Below are positions 1-64,000 of a stretch of DNA of 64,000 nucleotides, one piece after another. Positions within the stretch are counted from its first letter, which is position 1; the number at the start of each line of letters is the position of its first letter. The notes beneath the pieces are model-generated. The model was not told the origin of the DNA. It did not search any database and was given only the letters and a program-made list of their open reading frames with translations. Origin of the DNA: Paraspadella gotoi (lineage: Eukaryota > Animalia > Chaetognatha); NCBI GenBank assembly GCA_051294375.1, contig CM119267.1, positions 15,416,105 to 15,480,104 on the forward strand, written 5' to 3'. Both the position numbers and the translations under genes were made by a program.

Positions 1-1828
1 CGTAAATTATCAAACCATCGAGTTTTACAACGCTTGTGATTCGGTTCTTCGATTCTCCGATTTTCGCGACCGTCCTGATGATACTGCGCGGCCAAATCGT
101 CCAGGTCGTTGTCCAATCTAGTCGCATCAAACGTAATTCGCGACGAATCCTCTGAGTTCTCGCCGAAAATTTCCTCCAATGCAGAATCGAGCGCCAACCG
201 TTTTCGCTTCGAGTTTCCGCCTTTTATAGGGGCCGAGCGTAGTCGGTTATCTTCCGCTGGTCCACGGCGAACAAAAACGAGCGCCGCTGTGAAAGCATTC
301 CGCACACGCGCCTCTTTCGCGCGCTCTTTAGTCGGGTTGTAAAAAGAGGAAAACTTAAACTCTTTTTTGTTTTGAGTTCTTTCGTCTCCTTTCATCGGAC
401 TGGTCGTCAGAGTCTTCTGCCATTCGAGAAAAACCTCGTCTGCCCAAGTCAGCGAATGTTTCATTGGCAGACCAGTACCGAAGGCTCCTTTCTGGATTTC
501 GAAAAGTCGCGAGACGTGATCTGTCGACGCAATATGGAGCCCCATGCTTAGTAGGCGATCGATGCCGGAATTGCTTTGAACGGAGGTTCCTTTAAAGATT
601 AAGGATTTTTGAATTATAAGGGAGCTACCCATTACATTTGGGTCATTCTTACCGGTCATATTCAGCAACGTTAGTTTCGTAAATCCGACCAGATAGCGAA
701 CACTAACAAAAAAGTAATCAAAAGAATAACAAAAAGGTGTAAGGGGCGAAAGTTTCTTCCCGACATGTATTAAACCCATAACGAAACTCACCATAACCCC
801 GAGAGATTATAGTTTCCCGAAAGATCGAGCTCGCTTAAACGGGCGAGGCTTTCCCCGCCGCACATCCTGAAGCGCGACGTTATCATCCTCAAGTCTTCGT
901 CCTTCAAGTCACAACCGACGAGCGCCAGCTTAACGAGACTGGTCATCCGCCCGACGCCCAGAAGTAGCGAACGCCGAATCCCCGGAGATTCAAACTCGAC
1001 GTCTGGAGATTCCCTCGTGGAAGTCGAGAGAGAAGGGGTTAATTTGACCGTCAGTGCCACATTGGAGCTCCGTCCTCAATGATCACCTCGTAGGCGAACC
1101 TCCTGCAACGAGGTTCGGCACGCATCGGCGACGACGTCGACGACGCCGGCGGAAATTAGCGAGTGTCTCAGATCGCAAACGGAGACGAAGCGGCACCCGT
1201 AGGCGTCGGCGAAAAGACGGAAGGCTTCAACCGAGTCTTCTGGGAGGCGAAACTTGCCGAAGCGGCGAGCCTCCTCGAACAACTGGCGTCCCACGTCTTC
1301 AGGAAATTCGATGAGGGATTCCACCAAATCGACGTGGGAAGCGACAAAGGAGAGAGCAATCTGTGACGGAAAATAAATTTATGAAAAATACAAAATAAAT
1401 TTTTTTCCTAGAAATATAAAGTCATTAATTAAAAAACGTATTGGGGGGCCAGCTTAGTATTTTTTATTAAATTTATTAAATAATTAATTTATTAAATTAG
1501 CTTCTATTTTAAATAGCAACACTGATTTACTGCAGATATTAATTAGTAAATAATATTAATTCAATTGAATTTAATCTTCAGTGTAAATCACCTGAAATAA
1601 TTTCTTGGGTCTAGCACCGTTTGCAACGATGTTTGCAGTCTTCTCTTTCGGCTTTTCAGTCTCTTTTAAGTCCTCACAATTGAGAACAGACGGCTCCAAA
1701 ACCTTTGGCGGGACTTTCCGCTTTCCCCGAACCGGCTCTTGGACCCCGTCAAACCGAACCGTTGTCGTTCCGCGATACAACTCGCCACTTCCCTCGTAAA
1801 CGTAAACCTCTCCCGACCAGTCCCCCAT
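1..1828 (-). CDS. LRRC42: Leucine-rich repeat protein 42-like, 3' end runs off the window
   Basis: Spliced exons 1828-1592, 1360-1087, 1002-~793, ~703-653, ~589-<1 give KKLFQ|IALSFVASHVDLVESLIEFPEDVGRQLF...FADAYG...LDLSGN...TWADEVFLEWQ, matching remembered LRRC42 motifs (SLIGFPEQIAEKLF, FTEAYG, GWADQIVLQWE). Confidence 0.8.
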
Positions 1829-2229
1829 ATTTTCAAGTTTTGCCTCGCAAGAAGCGATGCTCTGGGTAATTAATATTTAATAACTTTCCTTCCTGAACAT
1901 TGGCTGGCAGTAAGGATACGAGTTAAGCAAAGGTGAAAATAAAATGTGAACGATTTAGGTTGATATGGCGGGTAAAGGAAACATTAAGTATATCGAACAA
2001 CTTAAGCCGAGATATCACGAATATTGATAAAAACAAAGAAAGAGACCAGCTATTATGATTTCATTCAATTAAAATGCGCGAGGAATTCAAAGAGAAATGT
2101 GTGTATGCATGTGTGGCGAACGCCTAAGTCGCCTCACGGTTCCATAAAATCTATTCCTCGATTTCTTATTAAAATAAAATAACGATAAATAGCGACTAAA
2201 CTACAACACCGACGACGACGACGATAAGA

Positions 2230-5200
2230 CTAGGATTGGATTTGTTGCTCAGGGTCGTGATGAGAATATTTAACCATTTGCTGCTGCAACAGAGCGATTG
2301 TTCGATCCTTGGAAGCCAATTTTTGACTCAGGAAAGCCATCTGGTTCCTGTAGACAAAGGATAGGTCAATTGACAAGAAACAAACATTGCGGTAAGAGTA
2401 TTACAACAAATAATTCGGTCAATAACCTCAGCTCTTGATTTTCTGCAGCGAGGGTTTCCGGATCAGTAGTAGTAGACTCGATTAGTGTGGCGGGGTCAAA
2501 ACCAGGATGAGATTCGTTCATCGGAAAGTGCGCCGAATGTCTCTTGGACATCTGAGTTTTAAACGTCGGAAGTAAATTGTTGCAGTTGCTACAGTGGCTG
2601 GAGGGCCAGAGAAAAGAGCGAGCGTGACCAGGTGAGGCCGCGGGTGAGTAAGCCTGAGAAAATAAAAAATACTACTAAATTATAAAATTAAATGGTTTTG
2701 TTTTTTCATAATAATAGCTTACCACGGCACTGAACTCATCCTGCTGTAATATCCTCTTCAATTTGAACAACATGGTTTTCATGGAAATAACGTCCTGGAG
2801 AGAGCGACGATACGTGACCCCATCCAACACGAACGCCAGCCCGTCCGGGTCGGGTTCAATCGGAAGAGACTTGGGAGGTCGGAATTTGGGCAGCGTGGTA
2901 GCGGGGGCGGACCATCTTGGCGTGGCAGTGGCGGACAGCGATCGCCCGCCTCCCTTCGCGCCCAGAGGAGAAGCCGTCCGGGATACCTCGACGACGGAGG
3001 CGCAGCGCTGTTTAAGCACGGGCGACGCCGACGACCCTTGTTCAATCGCATCCTTGTCGACGCCTCGAAAGGCAGTCACTTTGGAGCAGGACCAGACGCT
3101 GGGATGGCTATCCATCAGACCTCCGTTGGAGGGTCGTGACGACGATGACGAGCCCGACGTTTTTTTCTTCGGCGAAGATCCCGCGGTGCTCGAGGAAATG
3201 TCGAGACTACGTTGAAGCAAATCCAATTCTTCCCTGATCTCGTCCAATCCGTCGAGAAAGTGTCCATCGCCGCCGCCTTCTTCATTGTACGTCATCATAT
3301 CGCCCCCGGCGAGTGATTTAGAGCGCGGCTCGGTCGCCGATTCTTTCCGTCGAGCGGGAGACGAATCTTTTCTTCGACGAAGGACGACGGGGTCGAGGGT
3401 ATCGTCGACCGAGTTGTCTACGTCGAGCATCAGGTCGTTAGAGTCGAGTGAACACGAGGACAAAGTCTCAATGTCGGGTAAGTTAATCGAACCCGCGTCG
3501 GCGTCGCTTTGAGATCGAGTCATGGGATGATCGTCAGATTCGACGAAGTCGCTGTCGCTAACGGAGCGGGATTGATCGGCAGCCTGGTCGGCGGAGGCGG
3601 AAATCCCCTTGGGAAACGCTTCTTCCTCCTCCACCGACGACCCTTTGCCCAAGTCGAGGAGATCATCGGCCCGAAGGCGAGAGATGTTAACAGATTTAGC
3701 TGCTTTGGATTCATCGTCGACACCGGCGTCCGCCTTCTTGAGGGGACTCGTCGAGCGGGAAGAGGCGCTTTCCACGAAGCTTTTTTCTTTAACGACGACC
3801 GGCGCCGATTTAAACGTCACTGATGTCGGAGGCGCGAGAGGCGTTTCCACATCTTCTTCTAGGCTGTAGCTTTGTAGAGACAGATTGAGGTTAGTCTTGG
3901 GAATGGGTGATTCTGGGTCCACGATCTCGATGTCTTCATGAGCGTCGTCGTCGTCCTCACTGATTTCCGTTTGAAAGGACCCCTCTCTCGCAGGTTCGAC
4001 CTCTTTCGTTATGAGACTAGAATTTGCAGCAATAGTTTCCTTCTCTGTCGCTGATTGAGCGACGGCGACAACCTTCTCGCTGACCATGGCGTCGCTCGAG
4101 GCTTTTTCGTCGTTCCTCACTAGGTTGTTGTTGAAGTTGAGCACGGCCTTCCTCGCGGGAGACTTGACGGGAGTATCGATTGGGCCGGCGACGTCGCTGC
4201 TCTGAAGAGAAACGAAATCCTCGGAAGAAGATGCGTCGATAAAGTTGAGACCGTCAACGGAGAAATGGTTGTTGTCACGACGGGAAGATTGCGTCGAAGC
4301 CGGTCGAGACTCGGCAATGGAATTGGAAAGAATCGCTTGGCCGACGGATTCTTCTCGATTATCCCCCATCAAAGACGCCGTCCCGGGTTCCCCGCCGTCC
4401 GCCGCGCTCTTCCCAAAACCGAAAGCCCGCGTGATCAGCTCCTTGCGAATCCGTTCGTTCGGGGACTTTATGGGAGGGGGAGCTGGGGCGGCGGCGAAAG
4501 CGCGCGAAGCGGCGGCGGGTGGCATGAGTCTGGACTTGATTCCGTCGTAACGGAACCCGAATCCAGAGTTTTTAATCTTCCCTATGCCGCCGCTCTGCGC
4601 CTTTCCACTCTTCGTAGGCTGGGGAATGGGGGTCGGGGCCGAAGGCTCAGCCGCCGAGGTTTTTTCAACTGGCTTCGGTGAGCGAACGATCCCGAATTGG
4701 AAATTACGCCCCGATTTGTTTGAGGGGATGGTGCTGTTAGGGGCTCCAACACCCAGGCTGGTGGTCCCAGAGGACTTAGAGCCGCCCAAGAGACGCGATC
4801 GCCCACGCGCCGGAATCGGAAGACCGCGAGATTTCAATGAGAGGCCCGAAGACGGCGAGGTTGTTAAACCGGGAGAGGTTGTCTCGGTTTCGGCGTCTCC
4901 ATTCGTCGAGCGAGAAGTACATTGGTTGTTGTTGATGCTGTTTTTATTGTTTCTTCGAATATTGCTACTGTTGTTGTTGTTGTTTGATCTGAAACCGAAT
5001 CTCGCTGTAACAGGAGAGTTGTCCACGGGAGTAGCATTGTCGATGGCAGCGTCCTCTAGACTCTCCACCGATGCGCAGGGGATGACTCTTCGGGGGATAA
5101 ACTGGTCTTCTAGATTTAATTCCCTCGCTGATGGTGAAGTCCCCGACGACGACGTCGCCACCGCCACTCGGGTTTTGCTTTTCGGTCGCGGGAGTCCACG

Positions 5201-5608
5201 ACCACGGCCAGACACGGGAGCCTTGGCCCGACCCTCCCGCTCCCGAAGCCCACCGTTAGAAGAGCCAGGGGCGAGCGCGTTGTTGCTTAGCCCAGAAGGT
5301 CGAAATCCGAAGCCTTCTCTCGTGGCAGAACCCGCCGATATTTTATCGCCTGGTCCTCTGGGATGAGCCATATTCGCGCCGGGTTCCTCGGATACGGCGG
5401 CGTGGAACCCGTTGACCGCCGGAGCGTTCGATCGCGGCGAGACCAGAGACTTGGGTGAGAAAAGACGAAAGGAGCGGTAGGAGAGGGAGGATTTAAGACT
5501 TGGGGTGTCGGCGAACGAATCCGCGTCGCTCGCCGATCGAGATGGGGGAATTCTTTGCTTAGGCGCTGCGGTGTTGGTTAAAGAAGGGCGTGATTGTTGA
5601 GAGCCCAT
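2230..5608 (-). CDS. Serine-rich coiled-coil protein (CCSER1/2-like)
   Basis: Long S/P-rich disordered exon 5608-2723, then exons 2653-~2427 and 2348-2230; C-terminal QDVISMKTMLFKLKRILQQ and LSQKLASKDRTIALLQQQM resemble the CCSER conserved coiled coils; N-terminus MGSQQS fits an N-myristoylation motif. Confidence 0.65.
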
Positions 5609-6033: not shown

Positions 6034-7351
6034 TCACAGACGAGATTTAATTTGATTGTCTAAAGACAAAAAACGACATATTTCCGTTGAGATGACATCG
6101 GACTTTTCAATCGGCACCGAATGTCCGCAAGAAGTGATCATGACCAATTGACTGCCGGCAATTCCTAGATTCATAAATATGATTGTGAATAAACAAAAAA
6201 GATTGGTTAATTTAGCCTACTTTTGGCAGGACCTTGATGAAGAACTTCTGCCCCACGACTATTAACGATAGCGTCAGAGTCGCCCCAGAGCACCAGAGTA
6301 GGACATTTTACAAAAGTCATGTAAACGTTGGTAAGGTTAGACATTGGATCGTTCATCTGTTTAAATTAAAATTATTTTCGAATTTGTTTTGACAAAGTTC
6401 GTGACCTCACCCTAACAAACCTTAACTTGAAGAAATTTCCACATTTTTTTAAAGGCGGGATTATATGGCCTTCTTTTTTCCAGGTATGCGGCCAATTGCT
6501 CTGACGAAAAGTATAATGATTCCTTGTTACAAACCAACACTTTCATATTAAACCTCATTTCCTCGATCGTTTCGGGGATGAGATATTTGCGGATCGGATT
6601 TTCTACATCGTTGTCTTCATCGTCCTCAGTGATGTTTTCTTTTTTCGATTGGTACTCCACGATAGCGTCATAAAATTCCGAGGTTTCGGGGAAGGTCGCG
6701 ATTCCAGGACAAATGGCGATCAAGCTCCGCACCTCATCTGGATACAAAGCCGCCATGATGACGCCCACGGCGCCCCCCAGAGAATGTCCTCCGACGTGGT
6801 AGCGGCGTAGACCTAATTCCCGGGTCGATCGAGACGGATACAAAGCGGACAAACGAACGGAAAAGTCTTTGATCGGCTCTCACCGAGTGTTTCGGTGAAT
6901 TGGTGAACGCGTACGGCCATGTCCTTGGCGGTGAAACTGTCGGTTTCTCGGAAAGTCGTTGACCCGTGGCCGGGAAGATCAACGGCAATAACATGCAGAG
7001 ATTCTGGTAGCTGCTCTAACACCGTCCGCCATGTTCCTTTAGATCTGTTTTAATTTGAGAATTTAGAATTCCGTTTCCGAATGCTCGGTGCACAGGGAAG
7101 AGGGAAGCGTCCAACGGCTCATTTCATTACCCGGTGAATCCGTGCATCAGAATGAGCGTGTCGTTGAGCGACTGATCGCCCTGTTCGACGAAGGACACTT
7201 CATAGTCGGGATCGTCCGATAACTTAATTTTTTTCAGCATGACGCGATTTTTACGCTTTTTTTTTAAATTATAAACGGTCTCATAGTAAGAATATATGAG
7301 GTAGGTCAAACCGACAGTTCCGATAAAACACAACGTCGCCAATATTTTCAT
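6034..7351 (-). CDS. Alpha/beta-hydrolase, monoacylglycerol lipase ABHD6-like
   Basis: Five exons; N-terminal hydrophobic anchor, HGFTG oxyanion motif, VDLPGHG, GHSLGG nucleophile elbow, LWGDSD and CGH catalytic motifs; stop TGA at 6034-6036. Confidence 0.8.
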
Positions 7352-8467: not shown

Positions 8468-10234
8468 TCATCGAAACCGATGTAAAGGAAAAGGTGGCAT
8501 GAATCTGGGCCGAAATCCTGGACGACGTAGAAGATGCGGCGGCGGTGGGCGGTGATTGTGAGGAATAGGAAGACGAAATCGCATATTTTGTGGCCGCAAA
8601 ATGATAGGCGTGGTGTCGCATCTCATGGGCACAGGATTTGGGGAATTATTACAGTTGACATCGTGACTCTCCTTCAATTCTGGCACCTTAGTTTCTCTTG
8701 GCTTCTCATCGGATTTGACATTTTCTACGAAGGAATTAATTACGTCCAAACGAAATGCGACGGGAATATCTGGGTCCTCGCCGAGTCGACGAGCAGATTC
8801 CAATTTTTCCAAGAATCGTCGAATGGACGCGGATGAAGAAAAAGCGAGAATAACTCTAAATATTTCTCCTTCATTAGTGCGAAGTTCGTTTTTAAATTTT
8901 ACATCGACTACGTCATGGCGCATCGCATCGTTGAGATACTTAACGTGAGCGAATTGCCTCGTCATCTCAAGCATAACTTGTAGTTCTTCGCGATAAACGG
9001 CGTCGGGAGAGCTTCGAAAGGGCATTGATAAAAAATTCTTCATAGCCGCTTTCGCCTTCTCCCTTTCTTCGACGGTGGCGTATTGTGGATTGTATTCAGT
9101 TTCGGCGTCTCGAGAAACCTCGATCTCTTCGTCGCTGAAGAAGACGTCATAGGGTGCATTTTGAGCGGAGTTGGCCGAGTCGAGGTTCAGATTGACCGCA
9201 TCGGGGTTCGAATCCCCCGCATCGGTGTTCGGATAAACAGCATGGAGGTTCAAATTAACCGCATCGAGATTCGGATTGACCGCATCGAGATTCGGATCGG
9301 TATGCAAGTCGATAGAAGGGGAAGATGAGTCGAAATATTGAGCCGAAGGGCCAATTAACTCAGGGTTATCATCTGAACATGGCAAAGGAACGTTTGCATT
9401 AGACTGTGAAATGACCGAATCGCGTAACGGATCAGCAGAATGTGGCAATCGAAAGCGAGAATGGGAAGAGTGTTCAGCCGTCGTATTTCCTTCTTCAATG
9501 ATGAGCGTTTCGAACTGATTAATGGTAACGAAGGAGGGCGAGGCCTCCAAAAAGCCCGATTCGCTCGAGATCGATTCTTTTTCCAGTTCAGCCGAGTTCG
9601 ATCCGTTTTCGCGTTGTAACTTTTTCTTCTTCTTTCGCTTCTTTTTATCGGCCTCCTTCCATTCCTGTTCGAGTTCATTCGGCACGGATTCAGACGAGAC
9701 AACCCCAATGGAATCGACGAGGTCGACCAGCTGTACCATCCTTGAAATTCGATCAAACACCTCCGCCTTTTTCTTGAGCCTTTGGTTCTCTTCACGAAGA
9801 CTCGCAACCATCGTTTCAGCCATCCCGATGCGGTCCTCCAGCTCGGCAGCCTCCTTCGATTTGGCCGCCTCTACGCTCGCCAGCAACGCCTCCGACAGCT
9901 CTAGCTTTTTCCGCAAAGCCTTCAATTCACCCTCGCGTGAGAAAGCTCCTTCGACAAGCTCTTCCGCGAGCAAAATCTGACTTCGGAGTTCATCGTGTTG
10001 TTCCTCGTTGTCAGACTGGAAAGAGAAGAAAAGTCGCCTGACGACCCCACGCGCGGGGTTCGTCTCGAACCGAACCTTGCAAGAGGGACAGAGCGCGGGC
10101 TGCTGTTGCGCCTGAGATTTGCGAGCCCAATCGAGGAGGCATTCCAAATGAAAAGTGTGACCGCAGGCGCACGCCGCTATGTTCTCCAAATTGTCAAAAA
10201 TTTCGAAACAGATGGGACAATTTGGTAGTTTCAT
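8468..10234 (-). CDS. Intronless RING-H2/coiled-coil E3 ligase, TRAIP-like N-terminus
   Basis: 588-aa ORF starting CPIC...CGHTFHLEC...CPSC...RRLFF followed by a coiled coil; the C-terminal half is not recognisable. Confidence 0.75.
   Translation of the reverse strand: MKLPNCPICFEIFDNLENIAACACGHTFHLECLLDWARKSQAQQQPALCPSCKVRFETNPARGVVRRLFFSFQSDNEEQHDELRSQILLAEELVEGAFSREGELKALRKKLELSEALLASVEAAKSKEAAELEDRIGMAETMVASLREENQRLKKKAEVFDRISRMVQLVDLVDSIGVVSSESVPNELEQEWKEADKKKRKKKKKLQRENGSNSAELEKESISSESGFLEASPSFVTINQFETLIIEEGNTTAEHSSHSRFRLPHSADPLRDSVISQSNANVPLPCSDDNPELIGPSAQYFDSSSPSIDLHTDPNLDAVNPNLDAVNLNLHAVYPNTDAGDSNPDAVNLNLDSANSAQNAPYDVFFSDEEIEVSRDAETEYNPQYATVEEREKAKAAMKNFLSMPFRSSPDAVYREELQVMLEMTRQFAHVKYLNDAMRHDVVDVKFKNELRTNEGEIFRVILAFSSSASIRRFLEKLESARRLGEDPDIPVAFRLDVINSFVENVKSDEKPRETKVPELKESHDVNCNNSPNPVPMRCDTTPIILRPQNMRFRLPIPHNHRPPPPHLLRRPGFRPRFMPPFPLHRFR
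9175..9300 (-). repeat. Coding 21-bp tandem repeat (PNLDAVN-like heptads, about 6 degenerate units)
   Basis: accgcatcgagattcggattg-like units repeated; protein DPNLDAVNPNLDAVNLNLHAVYPNTDAGDSNPDAVNLNLD. Confidence 0.8.
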
Positions 10235-10471: not shown

Positions 10472-11595
10472 TTAATCGTTGACTTTTTGGAAGTATTTGA
10501 GCTTGTCGCTTGGGTTGGGGATGATGGTGTCGGCCCCGGGTTTCCATCCGGCAGGGCAAACCTCTCCGTGCTTATCCGTGTATTGAAAAGCCTGCACGAG
10601 GCGAAGCGTTTCGTCGACTGACCGGCCGACAGGTAGATCGTTCATCGTAATTTGCCTGAGCAAATACATAATTTATTAATAAATTCAAAAAAAGAAGCAA
10701 AAGGCAAAGAACGATTAAAATAACACTTTTTTTTGTTGTAAAGATACCTCAAAACACCCTTGTCGTCAACGATAAAGAGACCACGAAGCGAATGACCCGC
10801 GTCCTCCAGGTAGACCCCGTAATCTTTGGAGATCTTGTGCGTCAAGTCAGACAAAAGAGGAATATCCAGGCTCCCCAATCCGCCATCTTTACGAGGAGTC
10901 TTTATCCAGGCCAAGTGCGTGAATTGAGAGTCGACAGAAACGCCCACAACTTCCGCGTTGATAGCTCGGAATTCTTTAGCCCGATCACTGAAAAAGAGCG
11001 GAAAAAATGACGTGAAAAATATTTGGTTTAGAAAAACTAACCACTGACAAGTAAACACACTCGACAATTGATAATATTAATGAAATTGGTACAACCAATA
11101 TAAAAATTATCCATTCATTTAATAGATAAGCGATCTTGCCCCTGACAGGCTTTGGGGGTTTAAGGCCTCCATCACTCTTACAAAAAAATTACATAGCAGG
11201 TCCCTGCAAGCTTTCAATCAAGCCTCTCTTACAATCTCTATCAATAAAGTGGTATAATTTTTAAAAACTACCAACCTGAAGGCAATAATTTCCGTTGGAC
11301 AAACGAAAGTAAAGTCGAGCGGGTAAAAGAAGAATACCAAATACTTTCCCTTGAACATGTTGAGATTTAAGTCCTTGAACTCAGCGCCGACGACTGCGGT
11401 GCCTTCCCAATATGGAGCCGGCTTGGAAATAAGCGCCTTGCTCACTGAAAGCTGATGCGATCCGGCGCGGGGCTCTTGCGGGTAGACGAGACCCTCACCG
11501 AAAGAATGGCACGCCTCATCGCGACCAATCGCCGTCGCAAAATGGCAGGCAATCAACAAATTCGCCAAGGCGAAAATGATGAGACGCCCCTCCAT
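10472..11595 (-). CDS. PRDX4: Peroxiredoxin-4 (ER/secreted 2-Cys Prx)
   Basis: Signal peptide, [15 protein letters not shown] and GEVCPAGW motifs, three exons. Confidence 0.93.
11081..11240 (-). repeat. Dispersed repeat copy in PRDX4 intron 1
   Basis: Reverse complement of the core of the 54901-55811 unit (tgaaattggtacaaccaata...aaggcctccatcactcttaca...gtccctgcaag). Confidence 0.85.
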
Positions 11596-11804: not shown

Positions 11805-14186
11805 TCAGGCTGATTTGGAAATAGTTTCTACCATTTCTTGGAGCAATTGCTTTACTTCATCTACTTCATCTAAGCTTCGACTGGATAAAATTAGTTGGGA
11901 ACCAAGATCCGAATCTTCGTTGTAAGTCTTGTCAGATTGAATTCCGCCCGCGAATTCTTCACCGTCCGCAACCTCATCCGATTCCTCAATGCCTTTTTCC
12001 GACGGAAACAGCTCGGGAAAAATTTCCCGTGCAAACATGTTCCTGATCTTCGTCTGATCAACGGCGTGGCAATTGGTCTTGTGGACGTCGCCGACGCCCA
12101 ACCCGACGGCTTCGGCGACCCTTTGCGAGGGAAACAAGCACTTGTAGCACTTAAGCACGTTGGGAACCAGCACGTCGCAGAAGAGCACGCAGAGACGCTT
12201 GAAGGCGGCCGTTTCGGGCTCGTCGAGGGCGTTCCTTAGATCCTCAAAGGTGGCGACGAGGACGCCTGCCAGATCGAGAAGAAGCGTTGCCAGGGCGTCC
12301 TTTGTCTGAAAGAGCAGAGTGATGGTCGCAGTGGGGCGAAAATCGTTGAGGGCGTTAATGATGTCGTTGTAGAAGGAAGCGAGAGGAGGAAATTCGAGCA
12401 GAGAGAGAGGAGGAGCGGGAGGAGCGTTGGAAATGGCGGCTACGTTTTGGAAAGATCCTTCAGAGGTATCGGCGCCCGAGACGAGATCAAAGCTTAAAGC
12501 AAGAACGCCGCCCGAAGCCGCCATCGACGTAGAGGCGGGTTCGGAGGAGAAAGAAAGCACTTTAAGGTCCTCTTGGAAGTTCCGAAGAGCGCCGTCCAAT
12601 GAACGAACGAAAAAGGCAAGGGCAGTCTACAAAGAAAAAAATTACGAGAGTAATTGTTACAGTGTAGCGTACCTTGTTACTAATTTTTTTTTTTTTTATA
12701 AAAAACGGCATTTTTTTTATCAAGACCAAACCTCCTCAAAAATAGGAACGAGCAAAGGTCGAAGATCAACGCCGACTCGGCCGAAACTAAGACCGAAGTA
12801 CATGCACTGACTGGCCACGGCGTCCAATCGCGAACGGAGCGACGGCGAAGCCAAGTCTTTTTTCAATGTCGATAGAAACGATTCGACTTTAACTAAAATC
12901 CACGAATAAAGAATGGAGGAGTCGTTGCAGACCGTCGACGGGGCGGAACCTAGAGACAGACGACAGGTTGTATTGTGGTCAATTCACAAAAAAAATTGAC
13001 AAAAACCCTATAAACTTATATTGAGAAATGTTGCATCGTATTTATTACCCGCGGCGGTTCTTTTGACGTTAGCCCTGACTTCGTCGTCGTCGGTAAAGAT
13101 TGCTTTGTACTGGGTGATAATGTCGAAGAAGTGGATGCGAGTTACGTCGATAGTTTTCATCAAATGGTTATATGCGTCGTCCGAGGGAATGCTGGATATT
13201 AACCGAATTAAACATTTTAACTTTATTTATTTATCTACTTAATCTCTTTACTCTTTACCCAGAGAGAATCGTTTGGAACCAAGAATCCCTGGCGTTAAGG
13301 AATAAAACTCGAAGCTCAGTTTCGGAAAAAGCGTCGAGCCGTCGAATGTGTCCGATCACTTTCAAACAGACTGGAAGAGTTAACTGCGCCGTCCTCAGTT
13401 GGGCGATCAGTTGGCCAATCATAGACTGGATACAAGCGCGAACTTCGTTGAGAATGCTTCGGACCTGAATACAATGGATTCCCGATGATCAAAAGGCCAT
13501 AGGCAGCTCGCGTCTCTTTCGTCTCATACCAGCGGGATGTGAGAACCGTGTTTCTTGTCCATGCGTCTTATATAGTTGGCCAGTTCCAGGGCCTCGTCGA
13601 AATATCCGTTCTTGACGCAAGTGTCGATCAGTTGAGGAATCTCTAAGATCTCTAATAACTGAGTATGTTTCTGTAGAATTTGACCGTTAAGCTGAAATGA
13701 AAAAAATACTAAGAGTTACTTGAAGGCCTTGAAAACATATTAAACTCATAAGTAGCTAACCTTCCTCTTTTTGCTAATTTCCTCGGCCTGAACTTGAAAA
13801 TCTTTGCAACTGGTAGTGCAAGACGGAAGTTTCTCGTCCAACATGGACCCCAGTCGAGCTTCCACACCGACGAAGTCTTCAAAAATTTCTTTGGAGCATT
13901 CTTGAAAAAAAAAATGAAGCGTAAATCCAAAATTCAGACGCAATAACAATTACATATGAAAAGTTTGATGACGCTTACCGGCTGTCTGAATAAAAGTTTT
14001 GTAGTTTTGACTCGCTAAGTCTTTAGTCTCCTCCAAGATAGCGCTACGTTCTTCGGAAAGGCGTTCCGGTTCCTTCGTGAGGCGATCGAGACCGAAGGAG
14101 CTTAGTTGTGCCAAATAAGCGGAAATCTCCGGATTGAGGCCAATCCTCGAGTCTAGGCTAGACAGGAATGAAGTGCTTTCTTCCAT
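11805..14186 (-). CDS. COG8: Conserved oligomeric Golgi complex subunit 8
   Basis: Spliced exons give [82 protein letters not shown]. Confidence 0.92.
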
Positions 14187-14342: not shown

Positions 14343-16061
14343 TCACTCGTCGGGAACCTCGATCTCGCCGTCGTTGATCTTGTCGATGACGTCGTGCGGC
14401 GCCATTCCGTCGATGGAGCAGCCGATGGACTGCGCCGTGCCGAGGATTTCCTTGACGGTGCCCTCCAGGCGGCGCGCCATCGAACGCTCACGCATAATGC
14501 GGGCGATGTTGAGGATTTCCTCGAAGGAGACGTTGCCGCTGTGCTTGATGTTCTTGACCTTCTTGCGGTCGCGAGGCGGCTCCTTGAGGGCACGAATGAG
14601 AAGGGCCGAGGCGCTGGGGACCACGCTTACCTGCGCCTGGCGATTCTGGATGGTCAGCTTGACGGTGATGCGGAGGCCTTTCCAGTCCTGCGTCGCCTTG
14701 GCGATGTCATCTCCGACTTTTTTCGGAGATAGACCTGGGAAAAGTAACAATGATAAATATTTTTAAAAAATATTTTATTTTAAAAGAAATTGGTAAGAAG
14801 ACTCCTCACTAGGGTGAAGTGAAAGTTTGGAATCAAAATTTAGCAGTTATATCTTGAACACTATCATATTAGTGAATACTATTACTAATCTGTAGTTATT
14901 TTTTTTTTACAAATATAAAATGTCAAAATTTCAAAATGTTTTTTTTTAAATTCTGAGAACAGATTCAGATTCCTTGTTAAAAGTTGATGAAGGAAAATAT
15001 AAATCTTAAAATTTAAAAATTTGCATTTTGAAATTTTAGCTTATTATATACATATATATATACTTACTACTATATATAAATGTAGCTCACTAGTGCCCAC
15101 TAAAGTATAAAATTAACAAGTTTGCGCAATGTCGGATCTGCCCACGATCATTATCGGTAATTAAATAATTAATAATTAATTAATTAATTCAAGTTAAGTA
15201 ATTAATTAGTCAATTAAATAAATAAATTGATCCAAAATGTTTGTTTTAATTGATAAATTGACGGATTATTAATAATTGATTAATTAATTGACTAATTGAT
15301 TAATTAACTGATTAATTTATATATCTTACATTTACATTTAATATAAAAAGAAAAAGTAGCATAATCAATTAGTGAAACAGGTTTTTTTTTCATTTAAACT
15401 CATTTCCACGATTCAACGATTCCTGTTGGACAAACATTGTCCAACATTCCATCGAAACTTGATTTCCAGCTTAATCACACATTTTCTTACCCACATACAA
15501 ATTTTTAGGTCAATTGCCCCATCCACTTATGAGTAATTGGTGTTCAAATAATGAAATATATTTTTTTGTTTTTTCCATTAAAACTCATTTCCACTCGGAC
15601 GATTCCATCGAAACATCATATCCAGCTCAATCACACACTTCCCTAACCACATACAAAATTTCATTCCAATCCATCCATCGAATCACGAGTAATTGGTGTT
15701 TTTTGTTAAGGACGGACAGACAGACGGACATCGTTTTTTTTGCATAATTTATCATAATTCGATGTTTTGACATGAAATAAATTAATGCCCGACAAGATTG
15801 AGGGGGCGGACCGACGGACCGACAAAGTGAATTATAGAGTCGGGATCTTCTTATAAGCAGATCCGACTAAAAAATAAATTTACCAGAGTATTTTTATTGG
15901 TTTTTATGTTTATGTTTTATACATTTTATCATTTTCACATCACTCTACTCCTCACCCAAAGGTCCGATCTTGGGAGCCAGGGTGGCGGTGGCTCCGACTT
16001 CACCTCCGACGGCGCGAAGGCACACGACCTTGATTTCGTTGGGGTCGAACTTGGGAGGCAT
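14343..16061 (-). CDS. RPL12: 60S ribosomal protein L12 (uL11)
   Basis: Exon 16061-15956 [11 protein letters not shown]...LAPKIGPLG joined to exon 14734-14343 [14 protein letters not shown]... Confidence 0.97.
15115..15874 (+). mobile_element. Non-autonomous Helentron/DINE-1-like element (HINE) in RPL12 intron
   Basis: Starts AACAAG; subterminal inverted repeat GTCGGATCTGC 15131-15141 / GCAGATCCGAC 15857-15867; 3' hairpin 15838-15868 followed by an A run; GACG/GACA microsatellite; internal core duplicated (~15390-15545 and ~15570-15700); second copy at 18887-19454. Confidence 0.65.
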
Positions 16062-16072
16062 TTCGTCGTTCA

Positions 16073-16472: not shown

Positions 16473-18264
16473 TCAGACACAGTATTGATAAGGTTCCAGC
16501 TTGCCCATATTGGTGTTGGGCATGTGGAAGGGCGAAAACCAGACGAGTCCGAAAGGCGAACCGAAGACAGATTTAATGTTGGCCCACCGTGATTTTCGGC
16601 CCCACGAACCTCCTTCCTTCTTCAAAGCCTCGATCCCAGTTTCATCTTTGCATATGGAGTTCAGCTAAAAAAATTGCGTCGAGGCTTGGTTAAAGAAAAA
16701 ATGGAGAAAAGAAAACGGAACTCCCATAGAATTTACTTGAATTGCAATTAACATGCATATTAATTTTCTTATTACAAAAAACCTTGAAAAAATCGCACCT
16801 GAGTTAGGCACATGATGGTGGTGAAAAGGGCGAAGAGCAAAGCTTCAAAGGCGAGAATGATGATGAGGACGAGAGCGAGGGGCCGCCTAAAAACGCTGCA
16901 CCCGAAGCGAGCAACGTCGCGAGACTCGCCGGTGTCGGACGTCGAACCGGCCGGCCGTCGATCCGAGAAGAGACCGTGATGTTGAACGTTTTTAAAGAAT
17001 TGACCAGGAGTGTCGACGGCGTGAATTTCTAAACCCAAGTCGATTCGTTAATTTTTCATTTTCTTTGTTTTAGGTGGCATTCTTACCGGATGCGACGCAG
17101 GTTAGGAAATGGACAATTATCAAGAGCATGGCGTGTAAGGAAATGACGGCGATGTACAAAGTGAAGAGAACGAAGAATTTTTGGTTGTTCTCACCCACGC
17201 AGTTGTTGATCCAAGGGCAGTGGTGGTCCATTTTACGAACGCATCTACCAAAAGGTATTGTTAATAACAAATGACATTGATTGAATCATGAGAGAAGCTC
17301 ACCTTTGACAAATGCTACAATGATGAGATCGTTCAGGTTTGATACTACAGCATTTGGCGCATTTGTAGACTATTTGATTATGTTTGAAACCCATTTTTTG
17401 AATGTTATCCGGAGTGGCGTTGCCCATTGGAATGGCCCCAGGATCGGTCACCATCGCTTTCACGTGAGCAGAAGCTTTTGAAACCAAGGAAACTAACTTT
17501 GTATCGTCGTTGATAAAATTAATGTTTTGAATTACTTACTGGCGAGAAAAGCGAAAAGCAAGAAAATAACTGCGTTGACTATGTCGTAGACGTTGGTAAA
17601 ATCAGAGAGGATGACGTAATACACGACGAATACGGCATACGCGATCAAGAACCACGTCATCACGGCGCAGACGTAACCACATATATCGTTAACAAGCCAG
17701 ATCCGTATGCCACTGAGTAGAAAAAGAGAAGATGGCCCACATCTATTACCTGATAATAATTAATAATTATCTCACCGCAAAGAACGAAAGCATCGAAGCA
17801 CGGGGCAGCACTGAACGAGTTCCACGTCCTGAACTCCCGCCTGATTCGTTCTTCGCGGCGTCGTCACTTGTACTCGAGGTCCTGGGTCGGCTCCATGAAG
17901 ACGGTCCCCTGCGTAGAAGACGAGGCGGAGTTTTAGTGAAATAAGAGGGATAGAAAACGGGATAAAATCCCGTGTGCGTCTTAACATCTTACAAGCTCTC
18001 TCCACTCTCTGGAAATACGTGCGGCTCTTTCTCTTTTTCTGCTTCACAGACGTTTTACTGGTTCTCTTTGAGAGTTTAACGGACCCTAACGGTGTGATTT
18101 ACCATAGAAAATGAGCCACCGTATCGAGTCGCAAAAACTAACAAAGGCTTACCCATGCTTTCGGCAAGCCAATCGGAGGGAGTTTCCGTGGGACTAAAGG
18201 AATCCTCTTCGGTGGCATCGTCGTTAGATTGATTAGAGTTGTCTTGACTTTCTTCATCAGCCAT
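16473..18264 (-). CDS. Palmitoyltransferase ZDHHC3/7 family
   Basis: [62 protein letters not shown] and C-terminal YQYCV. Confidence 0.9.
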
Positions 18265-19494: not shown

Positions 19495-20199
19495 CTATGC
19501 TGTGCGTAAAATGATGTGAACCCCAGAATCGGTCCAAACTGGACCGCTCATGTCGCCCACCTAAATTTAAAACAAATTTTAAACAAATCGATATCGACAA
19601 GTTATCAAATTACGCGAGAGAACGTACCTCAAGCGCGAAAGCTGCGTCTTCGAACGGTTTTTGCATAGAGCCTCGACCGAAAGGCCCCAGATCTCCTCCA
19701 CGTTTTGCGGAACTGCAATCGGAAAAATCATTGGCCAACTCGGCGAAGGTTTTTTCGCCAGATTCGATCTGAAATTTCATTTGAAAGTTCCCTTTAAAAT
19801 AAATCGTCCGTTTGAATCAAAAAAATAGTTTTTGACTCGCCTGCTTTTGGTAACCCTCTAAAATCTCTAAGGCTTCTTCCTTCGTCCGAGTGATATTGTC
19901 CGAACGCCAACTCGATGGTCGACGAGAATCCCGATGTTTTACTAACAAATGAGACGCCTGTGAAAAAAATTATACCTCGTATAGTAGGTATATTGAAAAT
20001 TAAATTTGAGTAAATAAGTTATCCTCCCACCAAACAGAATTCAATTGAGCATTTTCACCTGAACTTTTCCGCCCCCATCGCCTTTCGCCGGGGAAGTAGG
20101 TCGCTCCCATTGGGATTCCTTAGTGTGTAAATTAAGGTAATATGACTTTCCACTGGACTTGGACGTCCTCTCCTCCCAACCTTCGGGAAGCTCGCTCAT
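19495..20199 (-). CDS. PIN1: Peptidyl-prolyl isomerase Pin1 (not in the ORF track)
   Basis: Four exons: WW domain [21 protein letters not shown]...SQWERP; [18 protein letters not shown]; [31 protein letters not shown]; [12 protein letters not shown]. Intron 19769-19840 is GC-AG. Confidence 0.95.
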
Positions 20200-26300: not shown

Positions 26301-27320
26301 ACTCTTCGGTCAACTGTTGAGCAAAGACCGACACTTCGGGCGACAGATTGAGCGTCCAGCACCGACCGGGTCGAGCCTAAAATAAGGTTATTGGTCGTAC
26401 AGCCTAATAGTATTTAAATTACTTTGATGACAAGACGTTAAACTTTTAGTTTAATTGAATTAAATTTGATACAAAATAAAAAATTCGCATAGATTCACCT
26501 GCATAAGCGTCCTAAGAGCCCAGAGCAGCTTTCGTTGGGAGTCGTAGTAAAGCACAACGGCGACGAGGCCGCGACTTAGACCTGGAAAGTAGGGTTGCTG
26601 CGATTCGGCAGCCTCCAAAAGCCGCACCGCTGCCATCTCGTTCAAGTTGAACAAGTCGCTTAGAATGACGGCCTCGTCGACGAACCGCTTATCCCACTGG
26701 GATGACGCCTTACCACGAAAAAACAAAACATTTCGATATTACACAACCTCGATTTAAATTTAATGACCTTTCTCACAGCAAATACCTCCGTGGCTTCTTT
26801 CAACAGTTTTGTTCTTTGAGGCGCATTTCTGGGTGGATTTTTGAGGAGAGACTTTATTCTGGGCATCAACGCCTTTGTCGCGTTCTGTAACGAAAAATAT
26901 AAAAAGAGCGAAATTAAAAATAATAGCGTATCTAATATCTATCAAAAACTTCGGTCATATAACTAAAGAAATTAAAAATCTAGATACCGGAATTGCTTGC
27001 ATGTTTTTAAATAACTTTCCAATTAATCAACATAAATCTCTCAACAATTTTTGTGAAACACCAGGGCAAGCTCCCACTTGTAAATCTCTGAACGATTCCA
27101 TCTGCTTCTGCTTGACGACTGATTCGACGAGGGCGTTAAACTGAGAATTCTGAACCCAGAGATTTTCCCCTGCCGCCCAGGAGTCGCCGCCGCCGCCGCC
27201 GCCGAGCGAAGGCGTGGAAAACGACATTACGCCGGAGAGGGAGTGGGAGACAGCGGCGTGGGTCATGACCCCGCTGCCCGACGTTTGAAACGCCGAAAAT
27301 CCGTTAAACAAAGACGTCAT
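20359..27320 (-). CDS. NUP205: Nuclear pore complex protein Nup205
   Basis: FVDEAVILSDLFNLNE, QQPYFPGLSRGLVAVVLYYD, VESRNEEYP, WILKTIALELR, DACDAHHVGKMLALSLLD; several small 5' exons plus one ~4.96-kb terminal exon. Confidence 0.93.
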
Positions 27321-30400: not shown

Positions 30401-30607
30401 TTTCTTCTTTTCCGATTCGGCGCGAGGGTCGCCGCCAGTCGGTTTAATCTTATTAGGCGTCGCGTTGGCATCGCGAGCGACGGGAGCGTGTGTCGGCGAG
30501 GCCTTTGAGGATTCGAGTTTCTCGACTGCTTCGGGCGGCGAATTCTCCGCGCCGTAGAGTCCTTCCAGCATGTTGTTGAGGTCGTCGTCGGAATCGGACG
30601 TTGCCAT
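27500..30607 (-). CDS. Intronless lysine-rich nucleolar-type protein, probable RNA polymerase I subunit RPA34/POLR1G (PAF49)-like
   Basis: Folded block LADPRYKLAILRIP...DIPLSGAD...GALRAAP resembles remembered POLR1G LTGPDTELWLIQAP...VPLSGSQ...GGLTCAS; long tail of poly-K tracts. First ATG at 30607. Confidence 0.55.
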   Translation of the reverse strand: MATSDSDDDLNNMLEGLYGAENSPPEAVEKLESSKASPTHAPVARDANATPNKIKPTGGDPRAESEKKKKENHESRATPRADLTPSNNETILSSNCLSAVETLNSESEADADDFIPSSQAISTQRSSIGGRKKSLGTREKPSQELSKATKSPEKEAKSAAKSAAKSARKPPIEQSAFKDNLSFFDALSDTESEPDLFNDFDMTKLTEAPVDEKARVEMAKLPIAAPVAGYRASKSYECRDLAHKLADPRYKLAILRIPAFLVADRKQMEVDIPLSGADTFSMSSAANDAVVQCVSMAKPSHKYLPMISDGEIGALRAAPLRVPVVTVQKRIQTAPAFGAAPFGSPASQLAAPLFLSPSTKSRTYLAGLSKFCGEIGLEEVTKTRLVEEDHFRKSSQGAAEKRNSGLEKSISNKTKNTSYDRDESPANSNEKKTTVDKWGNDENDGPKEMEESIPDSDQTKMSDVESRKESQSSDFNEDLCRPEYDDENFVEKDMESKVATTEESSLDSFRDEAEDKESFASAQPSLADEFHDTVESLEAKSTTITMMTENESLSHKKKKKKQKKRIREGIDATECESAHVTNDTEVHRESVDENLDVTRSTVFDVEKISEKSSIESNVDNSPYHSGNKVKKKKKRKREDSEATSLIGNETRNEEMTTQFLDEEMEAVKKKKKKRKREKSVSGNEAKSEEAIKEINSQSEIERTKEKKKKRKLEVVEDADQTLPNQDQVDVREKKRNDKKEKKRKGEESKRCDGAMDETSYEPKKKKKKKNQSLYQTLSSDLSQGASVPDLISARNEAEASATMDELRDSPTSRDTAVGPTPTTTLNTCDQPEATKMEKKNEDQDLSLSFDLSFELPVTPKKEQSKQNDTHKIASDGQQFQSGVESTKTQIMTNVEGEMRKKKKKMKKKKMESNEADIADTMRKKSRNERSSEDRRLDQDLSLLACSDNQESGSNVMEVDDKKKKKKKREKGSIATKPESSVETERTDVEDRKEEKDDKLIYETETSDDQPLTVEKIKKKKKKRKENREGNEKINA

Positions 30608-34400: not shown

Positions 34401-34463
34401 GAAGCATCCCCGTGAAATGGCTGAGGCCTGAGAGGCCGAAGCCTGAGAACAAGAGATTTCCAT
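31440..34463 (-). CDS. ORC3: Origin recognition complex subunit 3
   Basis: [77 protein letters not shown]...[10 protein letters not shown]. Confidence 0.93.
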
Positions 34464-37051: not shown

Positions 37052-48520
<11,469 letters not shown>

Positions 48521-49348: not shown

Positions 49349-59204
<9,856 letters not shown>

Positions 59205-60493: not shown

Positions 60494-60745
60494 GGGATCT
60501 TAAGTTTTTAAGACAGCTTTCAGTTCATCTGTAAGTATCGGTAATAGAAAAAATAGAGATCGCTAAAATATGAAAAACGATCAAAAACTGGGAGCATAAA
60601 AGCAAAACGTATAACCTTCCCATTACATTAGCTATCACTTGAGACCGTTATAAAGATTCTGAATTGTTATGATTCATCTAGGATTTCCGAGTCATTGCAA
60701 GCCCGCATTTAAATCAAAAGGCCTTATATCTTTCACTTTATTCAA

Positions 60746-62864
60746 TCACAAGACCACAAAATGGTTCTTATCGACTACGTCCGCGACGACAGGTCCTTTC
60801 GAGTCGAAGGGTTTCGTAGCTTCCACGATTCCCCGCACCGCTTCCGGCGTCAGCTTTTTGGCGGAATCTTCGACGGTCGCGTTGTTGACGTCGATGCCGT
60901 GGGAATTGTCAGCGTTTTTGATAAGACGCTTCCACTGTTCGTTAGTCTAGGAACATAAATCGCCGAAATTTAAAACTATAGAGAGGATTAATATACAAGA
61001 TATATATATAATAAGATAACATTATATATAAAGTATATGAGGAAAAAAAGGATTTGTTTCTTAATGAGGCCACCTGCTCGATGATGTCGTGGGCAAACGC
61101 TCGGTTTTTTGCTTCTCCATTGAAGGCAAATTTGTTTTCGGGTTTTCCGTCGGGCATTTTGTAAATGCGGAACCATTCCACGGTGGCGGCAATGAAGCCT
61201 GGAAGGAGAAATTGCAGTTATCGATTTTCATCATGAAGCGAATTTTTCGGGTTGTCTTGGCCAGTTGTTATTAATGTGGATACCAGGCATGTTCTTCTCA
61301 ATGTCGGTGATGTCGTTGAGCGTCTTCGCCAGCGGATCGTTGATGTCTATAGCAAGAAGCTTCCAGTCCGTCTCTCCGTCGTCGATTAGAGCTAAAGTTC
61401 CCAACACCTTCACCTTAACAAGTATATAGTATAATATTATATTGTGAAATTAGCACTTTAATACTAAAAGAAAGAGAATTTCAAGGAAGAAACTTTCGAT
61501 GAACCAAAGGAATGAGCAAAGGAATAAGCTACATAAATAGGTAAATTTGAAAACTCTTACCTGAATGACGTCTCCGCGCTTGCAGACGCGTTGGCCGATC
61601 TCGCAAACGTCGATTGGGTCATTATCGCCGCCTTCCTTGGTGTTAGAATCGATGTGGTCGGGGTCTTCCCACGTTTGGGGAAGAGCTCCGTAGTTCCAGA
61701 TGTAACTTATTAAAATTAAAAAAGTATGTACGTAAAGGCAAAAAGGTTATAGAGCATTTTCGTTAAATTAGCCGACAATATTTTTACCCGTGGTGCGGAA
61801 AACAATTGTGAACAAATCTCAGTTTTCCTTTTTTTTCGTCTTGTTTAATCGGATTAAGTTTCTCTTTCGTTGCGATCTCCATCTAAAAATGTGAATGGTT
61901 GGAAAGGAGGAAGAGAAGAGATTAAATCGATTGTATCGTTTTTTAAAGTTAAACATTTTGAAAGCCAGCAGAAAAAGAGAGAGCTAGCATGATAGGAATA
62001 GAAGACAAGGCTTGGCTCTTAAAATTCGGCCAAAGTGAGCAAACAAGAGCCGGATTCTCTGGGTGACCAAATCAGAGAGATCCGAGTGAAACCCAAAACG
62101 CTATAAGAAACGGTTACAGGCGATACAAATTTTGGGAGATGAAATTTCTCCCCGCGCCCACCCGCCCGATTTCACGACCCTTATTCTGTCCCTGGCTAAA
62201 ACGTGTCGCCGCAAGGCTACCTTATTTCCGTTCATAATGTAAACAAAGAGGGCAGACAAAGAGCGAGTGGCTTCAATGCGCAGTATGCACATTGCACCAT
62301 CTACACGGATTAATAAGTAAATTTTTTAAATCAAATTACACCACACAAAAAGGACAAAATAACTCCAACGGATACCTTGGCGTTGGTCCACCGAGGAATT
62401 TCGACAACCATGTTGAAGGTTTTGTTTTCTTTATCCGCATAGAGAGGAATGTCGTGAAATGGGCTTAAGTATTTCCCTGAAAAAAAGATGAGATTATCTA
62501 ATTATCTATCTTATCTTACGCTTCGCGAAACCGTCTTAACGTTCTCACCGTCTCCGTCCTTGTAAAAGATGCGATAATCGGCGGTGTTGCGCTGACCCCG
62601 CTCCTCGATCGCGAAAGTAGCCATCGTTTTGGCGAGCGTGGAAGAGAAAAACGAGGATAAAGTCGAAGGGAATCGACTGGTCTCGAAAAGAGGACGACGA
62701 GGAGGAGGATGAGTAAAAAAAGTCCTCTTCGATCCCGAGACTGATGAGAAGGGATTCGCCGTAAAAACGACGGAGGCGCCTTCGTTGCGAGGAAGGAAAT
62801 AAACCGGCAAGCGCCGCGCGGAATTCCAGACTCCGTTAAAAGAGAGTAAAAGACCGAAAGTCAT
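60746..62864 (-). CDS. Family I inorganic pyrophosphatase (PPA1/PPA2-type)
   Basis: [78 protein letters not shown]; stop TGA 60746-60748. Confidence 0.95.
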
Positions 62865-63134
62865 CGGCGAATTTAGGCTGCATAATATGCATATGTATCT
62901 TAAATGATTAGAATCTCGTCGGAAGCGCTGGAACCGATGAATAAATTAAAGGCGTATCACCGGGTAAAATAGTTAAGGAAAAGGAGAAGAGAGAATCATG
63001 AAAAAAATTAAGAGACTGGAACATGTTCAATTAGCACAAGAAAACAAAATAATTGGGAAAAGGCGCGACAGGATTTTTAAAATAAATTCTTTAGTTTCGG
63101 GGTGTATTTTTAATTTCTTTTTCCTCTGCTTGGG

Positions 63135-64000
63135 TTACTTTTTCAACGAAAAGTAAAGTATTAGAGAAAGAACGCCGACGATGACGATGAGAATACCGAT
63201 GAAAATACACATTTTTTTCCTCGATTTCGTCTGATAGACTTTAGCCTTTTCCAAATGAACGGCACCGGATTCCACCTGAACAACGAATGAGCGCAAGGCG
63301 AAGGATAAATGGAGGAAAACGCGAATGCTACGATAAATTGACTCTGATAAGTACTTGTTCGTTAGCTTGCTCCACGTTTTGTTCGATCGAGTCGATGACT
63401 TCCCCCTGTTCCGAAATGAGCGTCCCGAGTTCTTTGAAAATCTCATTGATGTCGACAATGTCGCGTTCCAAGTTAAGAATGGCCTCTTCTCGCTCCTATA
63501 TGAATTATTTTTTAAATGGAATAAAATGTACAAGTGAGCTAAATCTCCGAAAACACACCTGGAGGAGGGCCAGATCGGCCTCCGCTTGTGCCTGATCTGC
63601 CAGCAACAGTGCCTGACGCTGTTGGGAGTCGTCGTCGGCCAAGAGCTCTGCCCCTCCGTTTTCCGACACGAGCAAATCATCTTCGTCAATCCAGACAGAC
63701 GTCTGAGGAATTGAAATATTTTTATAGTGAAAAATTATGAATACAAGAATATATTATTGTACAATGTACAAGAGAAAAGTGAGAAGTTTTAATAATAAAT
63801 CGAAAACATTTAAAAGGTGACTACCGTCCGAATCGAACCAGCTTAATCAAGTTAAAAATCGACAACCTTGAGTGGCTTATCCTTGGGCTTTTCCCGCCTT
63901 CTCGAAACGAAGGAAGTCTTCATCTTATCGGCCACTCTCCTTTGACTGCCAGTGTAATGTTGTACGGCGGCCTGAAATTCTTTCTTCAGTCGGTCGAGTT
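63135..64000 (-). CDS. Syntaxin-7/12 family Qa-SNARE, 5' part outside window
   Basis: [38 protein letters not shown] motif and C-terminal TM ([26 protein letters not shown]). Confidence 0.85.

What the first reader, a model, noticed from the sequence alone, without database searches (positions are those of the whole stretch)
1..64000. Seventeen co-oriented genes: candidate polycistronic (operon-like) domain in an animal genome
Seen: all 17 non-nested genes across 64 kb are on the minus strand and functionally unrelated; with independent random orientation the chance is (1/2)^16, about 1.5e-5. Stop-to-ATG gaps: STX-PPA 270, PPA-NUDT8 252, NUDT8-GAA 110, POLR1G-NUP205 179, NUP205-PIN1 159, RPL12-COG8 156, COG8-PRDX4 209, PRDX4-RING 237 bp; three more are ~400-425 bp. 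Known: such arrays are operons resolved by spliced-leader trans-splicing in nematodes, tunicates, flatworms and chaetognaths. Inference: one very long or several tandem operons; if the lineage has no described SL system this would be new.
Basis: partly seen in the sequence, partly recalled or inferred. Interest (0 to 1): 0.85.

Follow-up and report, generated by a model that had tools for sequence, protein, structure and literature searches.

The report
Arrow-worm operons lined up in tandem
Seventeen housekeeping genes face the same way, and the RNA of one of them starts with the known arrow-worm spliced leader, so this is likely a row of several ordinary arrow-worm operons rather than a new gene-expression system.

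Summary
The layout is real: 17 genes on the minus strand, and all 11 quoted gaps are right. A plus-strand CFAP99 gene is nested in a GAA intron. RNA contigs were laid on 58900-63900 only (3 of 16 junctions). One spliced contig starts with 19 non-genomic bases joined at the AG acceptor before NUDT8. They match the 3' end of published chaetognath leader SL1 at 19 of 19 (PMC2481426). So the animal is very likely a chaetognath, a phylum where leader trans-splicing and operons are already described genome-wide (PMC12460157; longest operon nine genes). Spliced contigs also cross the STX-PPA and NUDT8-GAA gaps. With published operon counts, about 1.5 runs of 17 or more are expected per genome. Best reading: three or more short operons plus same-strand neighbours. 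One 17-gene transcript is not excluded but is unlikely. The scan noted operon-like clusters in four other genomes, none named a chaetognath.

The parts
63135..64000 (-). Syntaxin (STX7/12-like by recall), 3' part; gene runs off the right edge
   Evidence: Pfam SNARE; three spliced introns in X1
60746..62864 (-). Inorganic pyrophosphatase, 370 aa
   Evidence: Pfam; six introns in X1; intact frame
60528..60530 (-). Trans-splice site: AG at 60530-60529, first genomic base of the SL-bearing RNA at 60528, 35 nt before the NUDT8 ATG
   Evidence: Loose end of X1 contig 2; genomic context; 19 of 19 match to SL1 in Table 3 of PMC2481426
59315..60493 (-). NUDIX hydrolase (NUDT8-like), 268 aa
   Evidence: Pfam; introns in X1; frame
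49349..59204 (-). GH31 alpha-glucosidase (GAA-like)
   Evidence: Pfam Trefoil and GH31; downstream exon matches maltase-glucoamylase, E 0.003; last exon assigned by eye, no PDB hit
51611..53763 (+). CFAP99, two exons, nested antisense in the GAA intron 50105-53939
   Evidence: PDB CFAP99 E 5e-37; flanking GAA exons
37052..48520 (-). Beta-spectrin
   Evidence: Pfam; homologues
31440..34463 (-). ORC3
   Evidence: Pfam
27500..30607 (-). Single-exon 1035-aa gene, RPA34/POLR1G-like (lead only)
   Evidence: ESM Atlas 0.88 to PF08208 clusters; no Pfam hit
20359..27320 (-). NUP205
   Evidence: Pfam E 5e-210; homologues
19495..20199 (-). PIN1-like WW/PPIase
   Evidence: Pfam WW; intact frame
16473..18264 (-). 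DHHC palmitoyltransferase
   Evidence: weak Pfam DHHC; DHHC motif in intact frame
14343..16061 (-). RPL12 (uL11)
   Evidence: Pfam; homologues
11805..14186 (-). COG8
   Evidence: Pfam Dor1; intact frame
10472..11595 (-). Peroxiredoxin (PRDX4-like)
   Evidence: Pfam AhpC-TSA; intact frame
8468..10234 (-). Single-exon RING-finger gene, 588 aa
   Evidence: Pfam zf-RING_2
6034..7351 (-). Alpha/beta hydrolase
   Evidence: Pfam; intact frame
2230..5608 (-). CCSER-like gene
   Evidence: ESM Atlas 0.92 to CCSE2 clusters
1..1828 (-). LRR gene (LRRC42-like by recall), runs off the left edge
   Evidence: weak Pfam LRR_6; exon structure read

Best explanation
This is likely arrow-worm (chaetognath) DNA in which several short operons, likely STX-PPA-NUDT8-GAA, POLR1G-NUP205-PIN1 and RPL12-COG8-PRDX4-RING, sit in a row with other same-strand genes, and a chaetognath spliced leader is joined to the RNA of one internal gene, NUDT8. 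Shown: the gene layout, the leader spliced at an AG acceptor 216 nt after the PPA stop codon, and spliced RNA contigs crossing two short gaps. Inferred: each cluster is transcribed from one upstream promoter. The spliceosome joins the leader to an unpaired acceptor shortly before each downstream ATG, which gives that mRNA a capped 5' end. The upstream mRNA's 3' UTR likely runs up to about that acceptor, leaving little or no spacer. Inferred: the five long gaps hold long 3' UTRs, repeat insertions and new promoters, so the 17-gene run is the sum of several units that share a strand.
For: Leader: X1 contig 2 matches 60528-60367 with 0 differences; its first 19 nt are absent from the window (no match with up to 3 mismatches), start right after a genomic AG, and equal the last 19 nt of SL1. 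Bridging: X1 contig 3 runs unbroken over 63273-62548 (STX last exon, 270-bp gap, PPA exon 1) and on to 60508, 20 nt past the NUDT8 splice site. Contig 1 runs unbroken over 59486-58987 (NUDT8 last exon, 110-bp gap, GAA exon 1). Both are spliced on either side. Acceptors: 8 of 8 short-gap genes have an acceptor-like AG within 100 nt of the ATG, against 2 of 8 long-gap genes (Fisher p 0.007) and 43% of 77 background windows; 7 of those 8 have no strong donor upstream in the gap. Literature: about half of Paraspadella gotoi genes are trans-spliced and 18% lie in operons enriched for metabolic genes (PMC12460157, passages). A Spadella operon has only 3 bases between poly(A) site and acceptor (PMC2481426, passage). 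With 5,061 genes in 2,151 operons, runs of 17 or more average 1.5 per simulated genome, and 81.5% of 200 simulations had one.
Against: RNA was laid on 3 of 16 junctions. The leader was seen on 1 of the 3 gene starts covered, in one contig of one run (3 further loose ends and 12 pieces were not shown). A contig across two genes does not show a single transcript. The acceptor test was not significant before the split by gap length (10 of 16; p 0.10 against background, 0.059 against the opposite strand), and the proven NUDT8 site (score 5.4) was not the top-scoring AG in its window. Protein trees did not place the animal, so the phylum rests on the leader alone. A leader on NUDT8 does not exclude a promoter of its own inside the PPA gene. 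The simulation borrows another assembly's counts and assumes random orientation of units.
Confidence: 0.8

Rival explanations
1. The whole 62-kb array, perhaps extending past the window, is one polycistronic unit or a strand-fixed domain like a trypanosome gene cluster.
For: No opposite-strand gene outside an intron among 17. X1 contig 3 carries about 3.5 kb upstream of position 63900, more than the rest of a syntaxin coding sequence. Repeat copies lie inside two of the five long gaps (31107-31212, 19187-19229), so these gaps may be inflated.
Against: Five gaps of 828-2588 bp; 6 of the 8 genes after gaps over 400 bp lack a good acceptor within 100 nt; an antisense gene lies inside GAA; the longest operon reported in P. 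gotoi has nine genes; chance plus short operons already gives such runs.
Confidence: 0.07
2. The genes are tightly packed but each has its own promoter; some are trans-spliced singly (outron type), and overlapping UTRs make the contigs join.
For: P. gotoi has more trans-spliced genes outside operons than inside (5,586 against 2,643 in one figure legend). An AATAAA lies just after the PPA stop (60742). Contigs cannot show single molecules.
Against: Gaps of 110-270 bp must hold a 3' UTR and a 5' UTR and are fully covered by RNA where tested. Only 1 of 8 short gaps has AATAAA and 3 of 8 have AATAAA or ATTAAA, no more than introns do.
Confidence: 0.11
3. The leader is an artefact (chimeric contig or cross-contamination), and the animal is not a chaetognath.
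For: One contig only; another X1 contig has an unexplained 255-nt foreign end 20 nt away; trees are uninformative.
Against: The junction falls exactly after a genomic AG, the body matches the window without a difference, contig depth is 75.6, and the foreign part equals a published leader at 19 of 19.
Confidence: 0.02

Closest known systems
Chaetognath SL-resolved operons (Spadella cephaloptera, PMC2481426; Paraspadella gotoi, PMC12460157)
   Same: Same leader (SL1 3' end, 19 of 19); co-oriented housekeeping genes under 250 bp apart; mix of ribosomal, metabolic and unrelated genes.
   Different: The co-oriented run (17 genes) is longer than the longest reported operon (9), but it is not shown to be one unit; clusters by the 250-bp rule hold 3-4 genes. 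Species not determined.
Ciona intestinalis operons lacking intercistronic DNA (PMC1488885)
   Same: RNA covers the gap up to and across the acceptor; most upstream genes lack AATAAA (7 of 8 here, 16 of 18 there); unresolved two-gene RNAs are detectable there.
   Different: Different leader and phylum; poly(A) sites were not mapped here, so the absence of a spacer is inferred.
Caenorhabditis elegans SL2 operons (as described in PMC1488885)
   Same: Polycistronic housekeeping clusters cut up by trans-splicing.
   Different: These have about 100-nt spacers and an operon-specific leader; no operon-specific leader was found in chaetognaths (PMC12460157).
Trypanosomatid directional gene clusters (recalled)
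   Same: Long same-strand runs of unrelated genes matured by a leader.
   Different: Here genes are intron-rich, only about half of chaetognath genes are trans-spliced, and an antisense gene lies within the run.

Membership tests
Chaetognath SL-resolved operon | Two or more co-oriented genes less than 250 bp apart (definition in PMC12460157) | tested here: met
   6 of 16 gaps are under 250 bp even from stop to ATG; two more (252, 270) are fully covered by RNA or hold the splice site
Chaetognath SL-resolved operon | At least one member carries a spliced leader | tested here: met
   NUDT8, 1 of 3 gene starts covered; met for the STX-PPA-NUDT8-GAA cluster only, other clusters untested
Chaetognath SL-resolved operon | Leader is a chaetognath SL form | tested here: met
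   19 of 19 to SL1, Table 3 of PMC2481426
Chaetognath SL-resolved operon | Leader is encoded by an SL RNA gene elsewhere in the genome | not testable with these tools
   Not in the window; no whole genome held
Chaetognath SL-resolved operon | One precursor RNA spans neighbouring genes | tested here: inconclusive
   Spliced contigs cross 2 of 3 gaps tested and pass the acceptor of the third, but contigs are not molecules
Chaetognath SL-resolved operon | One promoter per cluster | not testable with these tools
   No CAGE, ATAC or raw reads available
Ciona-type operon without intercistronic DNA | Upstream poly(A) site coincides with the downstream trans-splice acceptor | tested here: inconclusive
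   RNA cover reaches the acceptor; AATAAA in 1 of 8 gaps against 1.35 expected from introns; 3' ends not mapped
C. elegans SL2-type operon | A leader specific to downstream genes | not tested
   One leader seen once; PMC12460157 reports no operon-specific leader in P. gotoi
Single 17-gene polycistron or trypanosomatid-type cluster | No internal promoter and every gene trans-spliced | tested here: inconclusive
   Five long gaps, weak acceptors before 6 of 8 long-gap genes, nested antisense gene; 13 of 16 junctions without RNA data

The most novel reading that the evidence does not exclude
All 17 genes, and more beyond the right edge, form one polycistronic domain of over 60 kb, about twice the longest chaetognath operon reported, transcribed straight through a nested antisense cilia gene and cut up by leader splicing with no spacers. 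Chaetognath chromosomes would then carry trypanosome-like directional gene blocks that a 250-bp operon rule splits up.
Probability: 0.07. Interest if true: 0.6.

Novelty: new member of a known kind. Interest (0 to 1): 0.17.

Why it matters
As it stands it is a clear example of a described system: leader trans-splicing and operons in arrow worms. [quoted passage not shown] It would matter more only if the long gaps prove promoter-free, since animal operons would then reach a much larger size than reported.

Tried and rejected
Genome-wide strand runs and the SL RNA gene: no genome held. Run search: no holder is on record as RNA; X1 proved spliced. X2-X4 gave only short pieces, no gene start with a leader. 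Placing the animal by proteins failed: NUP205 sat in an open fork with no starred group (30 of 86 hits used; the first tree run did not finish); spectrin hits were limited to proteins under 2000 aa; RPL12's best named hits were a sea star and a tunicate at 86-88%; cluster look-up gave no organism names. Leader on RPL12 relatives: 1 of 80 metagenome loci was close to the query; it showed no leader, and no locus had an exact chaetognath leader end; uninformative. Hexamer coding model: poorly trained, found only a few known exons, discarded. X1's share of words in 8400-18300 (0.63) lies between coding-only (0.555) and coding plus gaps (0.68); not decisive. AATAAA depletion: not significant. Rfam and ARAGORN: 0 hits. 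P. gotoi supplements: 3 files held, none with the gene table, so it could not be checked whether this gene order is already annotated as operons. A full-text search for the leader's 3' 14-mer found 0 papers, including the source paper, which prints it with gaps. Nematode, kinorhynch and Xenoturbella origins were considered from recall and dropped after the leader match.

Full report
Observation. Six-frame ORFs, Pfam, PDB and ESM Atlas searches give 17 non-nested genes on the minus strand, from the right edge: syntaxin (partial), PPA, NUDT8-like, GAA-like, beta-spectrin, ORC3, RPA34-like, NUP205, PIN1, DHHC, RPL12, COG8, PRDX4-like, RING, alpha/beta hydrolase, CCSER-like, LRR gene (partial). 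Subfamily names finer than the Pfam family are recalled. Nine of 17 models were chained to an intact frame. The 16 stop-to-ATG gaps are 270, 252, 110, 828, 2588, 832, 179, 159, 1230, 411, 156, 209, 237, 1116, 425 and 401 bp. CFAP99 lies on the plus strand inside a GAA intron; counted in gene order it would split the run into 4 and 13.

Chance. The figure 1.5e-5 is for one chosen window. For 22,072 independently oriented genes, 0.17 runs of 17 or more are expected, and 16% of 1000 simulations had one. With 5,061 genes tied into 2,151 operons, the counts published for Paraspadella gotoi, the mean was 1.5 runs and 81.5% of 200 simulations had one (geometric operon sizes, random unit orientation).

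RNA. Six runs were listed, one (X1) holding 63% of the sampled words. Four were laid on 58900-63900, which holds 3 of the 16 junctions. X1 is spliced: 14 listed joints have GT-AG ends on the minus strand. Its contig 2 (182 nt, depth 75.6) matches 60528-60367 without a difference and begins with 19 nt that lie nowhere in the window (no match with up to 3 mismatches). The genome has AG directly before 60528. These 19 nt equal the 3' end of chaetognath SL1 in Table 3 of PMC2481426, a form listed for both Spadella cephaloptera and Flaccisagitta enflata. This shows trans-splicing at an internal gene, 216 nt after the PPA stop codon. It also makes a chaetognath origin very likely; the species was not determined and protein trees did not help. 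Contig 3 (5813 nt) runs spliced from syntaxin through the whole 270-bp gap into PPA and on to 60508. Contig 1 (3318 nt) runs spliced from NUDT8 through the 110-bp gap into GAA. No leader was listed for PPA or GAA; three loose ends and 12 pieces were not shown. My inference, from recalled knowledge of graph assemblers, is that short leader branches are clipped when a read-through path exists. That would explain why the leader survived only where that path breaks. The alternative is that these two genes are not trans-spliced. Contigs do not show single molecules.

Sequence signals. An acceptor matrix was built from 99 intron ends: 15 from X1, the rest read by eye; 2 acceptor and 7 donor guesses did not snap to AG or GT, and 5 doubtful donors were dropped. 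Within 100 nt of the ATG, 10 of 16 genes have an AG scoring at or above the lower quartile of true acceptors, against 43% of 77 noncoding windows (p 0.10) and 3 of 16 on the opposite strand (p 0.059). Seven of the 8 have no strong donor upstream in the gap. The matrix is crude: the proven NUDT8 site was not its top pick. AATAAA occurs in 1 of 8 short gaps, the same as the intron background.

Mechanism. Most likely (0.8) three or more operons of 3-4 genes, and possibly ZDHHC-RPL12 and hydrolase-CCSER-LRR links across the 400-bp gaps. Each would be transcribed from one promoter and resolved by leader addition at an unpaired acceptor close to where the upstream 3' UTR ends. Rivals are separate promoters with single-gene trans-splicing (0.11), one 17-gene unit (0.07) and artefact (0.02).

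Comparison. PMC2481426 (passages and section 12 read) describes the leaders and a two-gene operon with 3 bases between poly(A) site and acceptor. PMC12460157 (outline, passages, section 5, three supplementary files searched) reports 10,197 trans-spliced genes, 18% of genes in operons, 2,151 candidates by a 250-bp rule, no operon-specific leader and a longest operon of nine genes. Its gene table was not among the held supplements, so this locus may already be annotated there. PMC1488885 (passages and section 17 read) describes spacer-less Ciona operons, 16 of 18 without AATAAA. PMC7986045 was seen as passages only. Searches for other chaetognath operon work listed no further primary study; subscription papers are not covered.

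Verdict. Real layout, correct general idea, known system in a known lineage. Interest 0.17. The open and bolder question is whether the long gaps contain promoters at all.

Noticed in passing
window 60508: X1 contig 3 leaves the genome 20 nt past the NUDT8 splice site and goes on with 255 nt whose adjacent 30 nt are not in the window: chimera, allele or insertion, unexplained.
   Followed up: partly
window 63900 and beyond: X1 contig 3 carries about 3.5 kb upstream of 63900, more than the rest of a syntaxin coding sequence, so at least one more gene is probably joined beyond the right edge.
   Followed up: no
window 60233 and 60294: NUDT8 intron 1 uses two acceptors 61 nt apart; the deeper one (68 against 22) shifts the frame, leaving an 85-aa product from the first ATG or a 192-aa one from a later ATG.
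   Followed up: partly
window 60528-60520: The first genomic bases after the leader form a two-codon upstream ORF ahead of the NUDT8 start.
   Followed up: no
window 62864 and 62624: PPA has two in-frame ATGs 80 codons apart; the extension looks like a mitochondrial presequence (by eye), so alternative trans-splice sites could give two forms.
   Followed up: no
window 54886-55811, 11068-11238, 31107-31212: A 279-nt unit repeated three times in a GAA intron, with related inverted copies in the PRDX4 intron and the ORC3-POLR1G gap: a dispersed repeat family.
   Followed up: partly
window 15444-15700 and 19187-19229: A second dispersed repeat shared by the RPL12 intron and the PIN1-ZDHHC gap.
   Followed up: no
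window 50720-51450: Just upstream of nested CFAP99 lie a CCAAT box and an exon-like minus-strand stretch ending in a donor-like site; possibly a two-way promoter inside the GAA intron that also serves spectrin (by eye).
   Followed up: no
window 20359-25322: NUP205 ends in one exon of about 4.96 kb, while its first quarter has several short introns.
   Followed up: no
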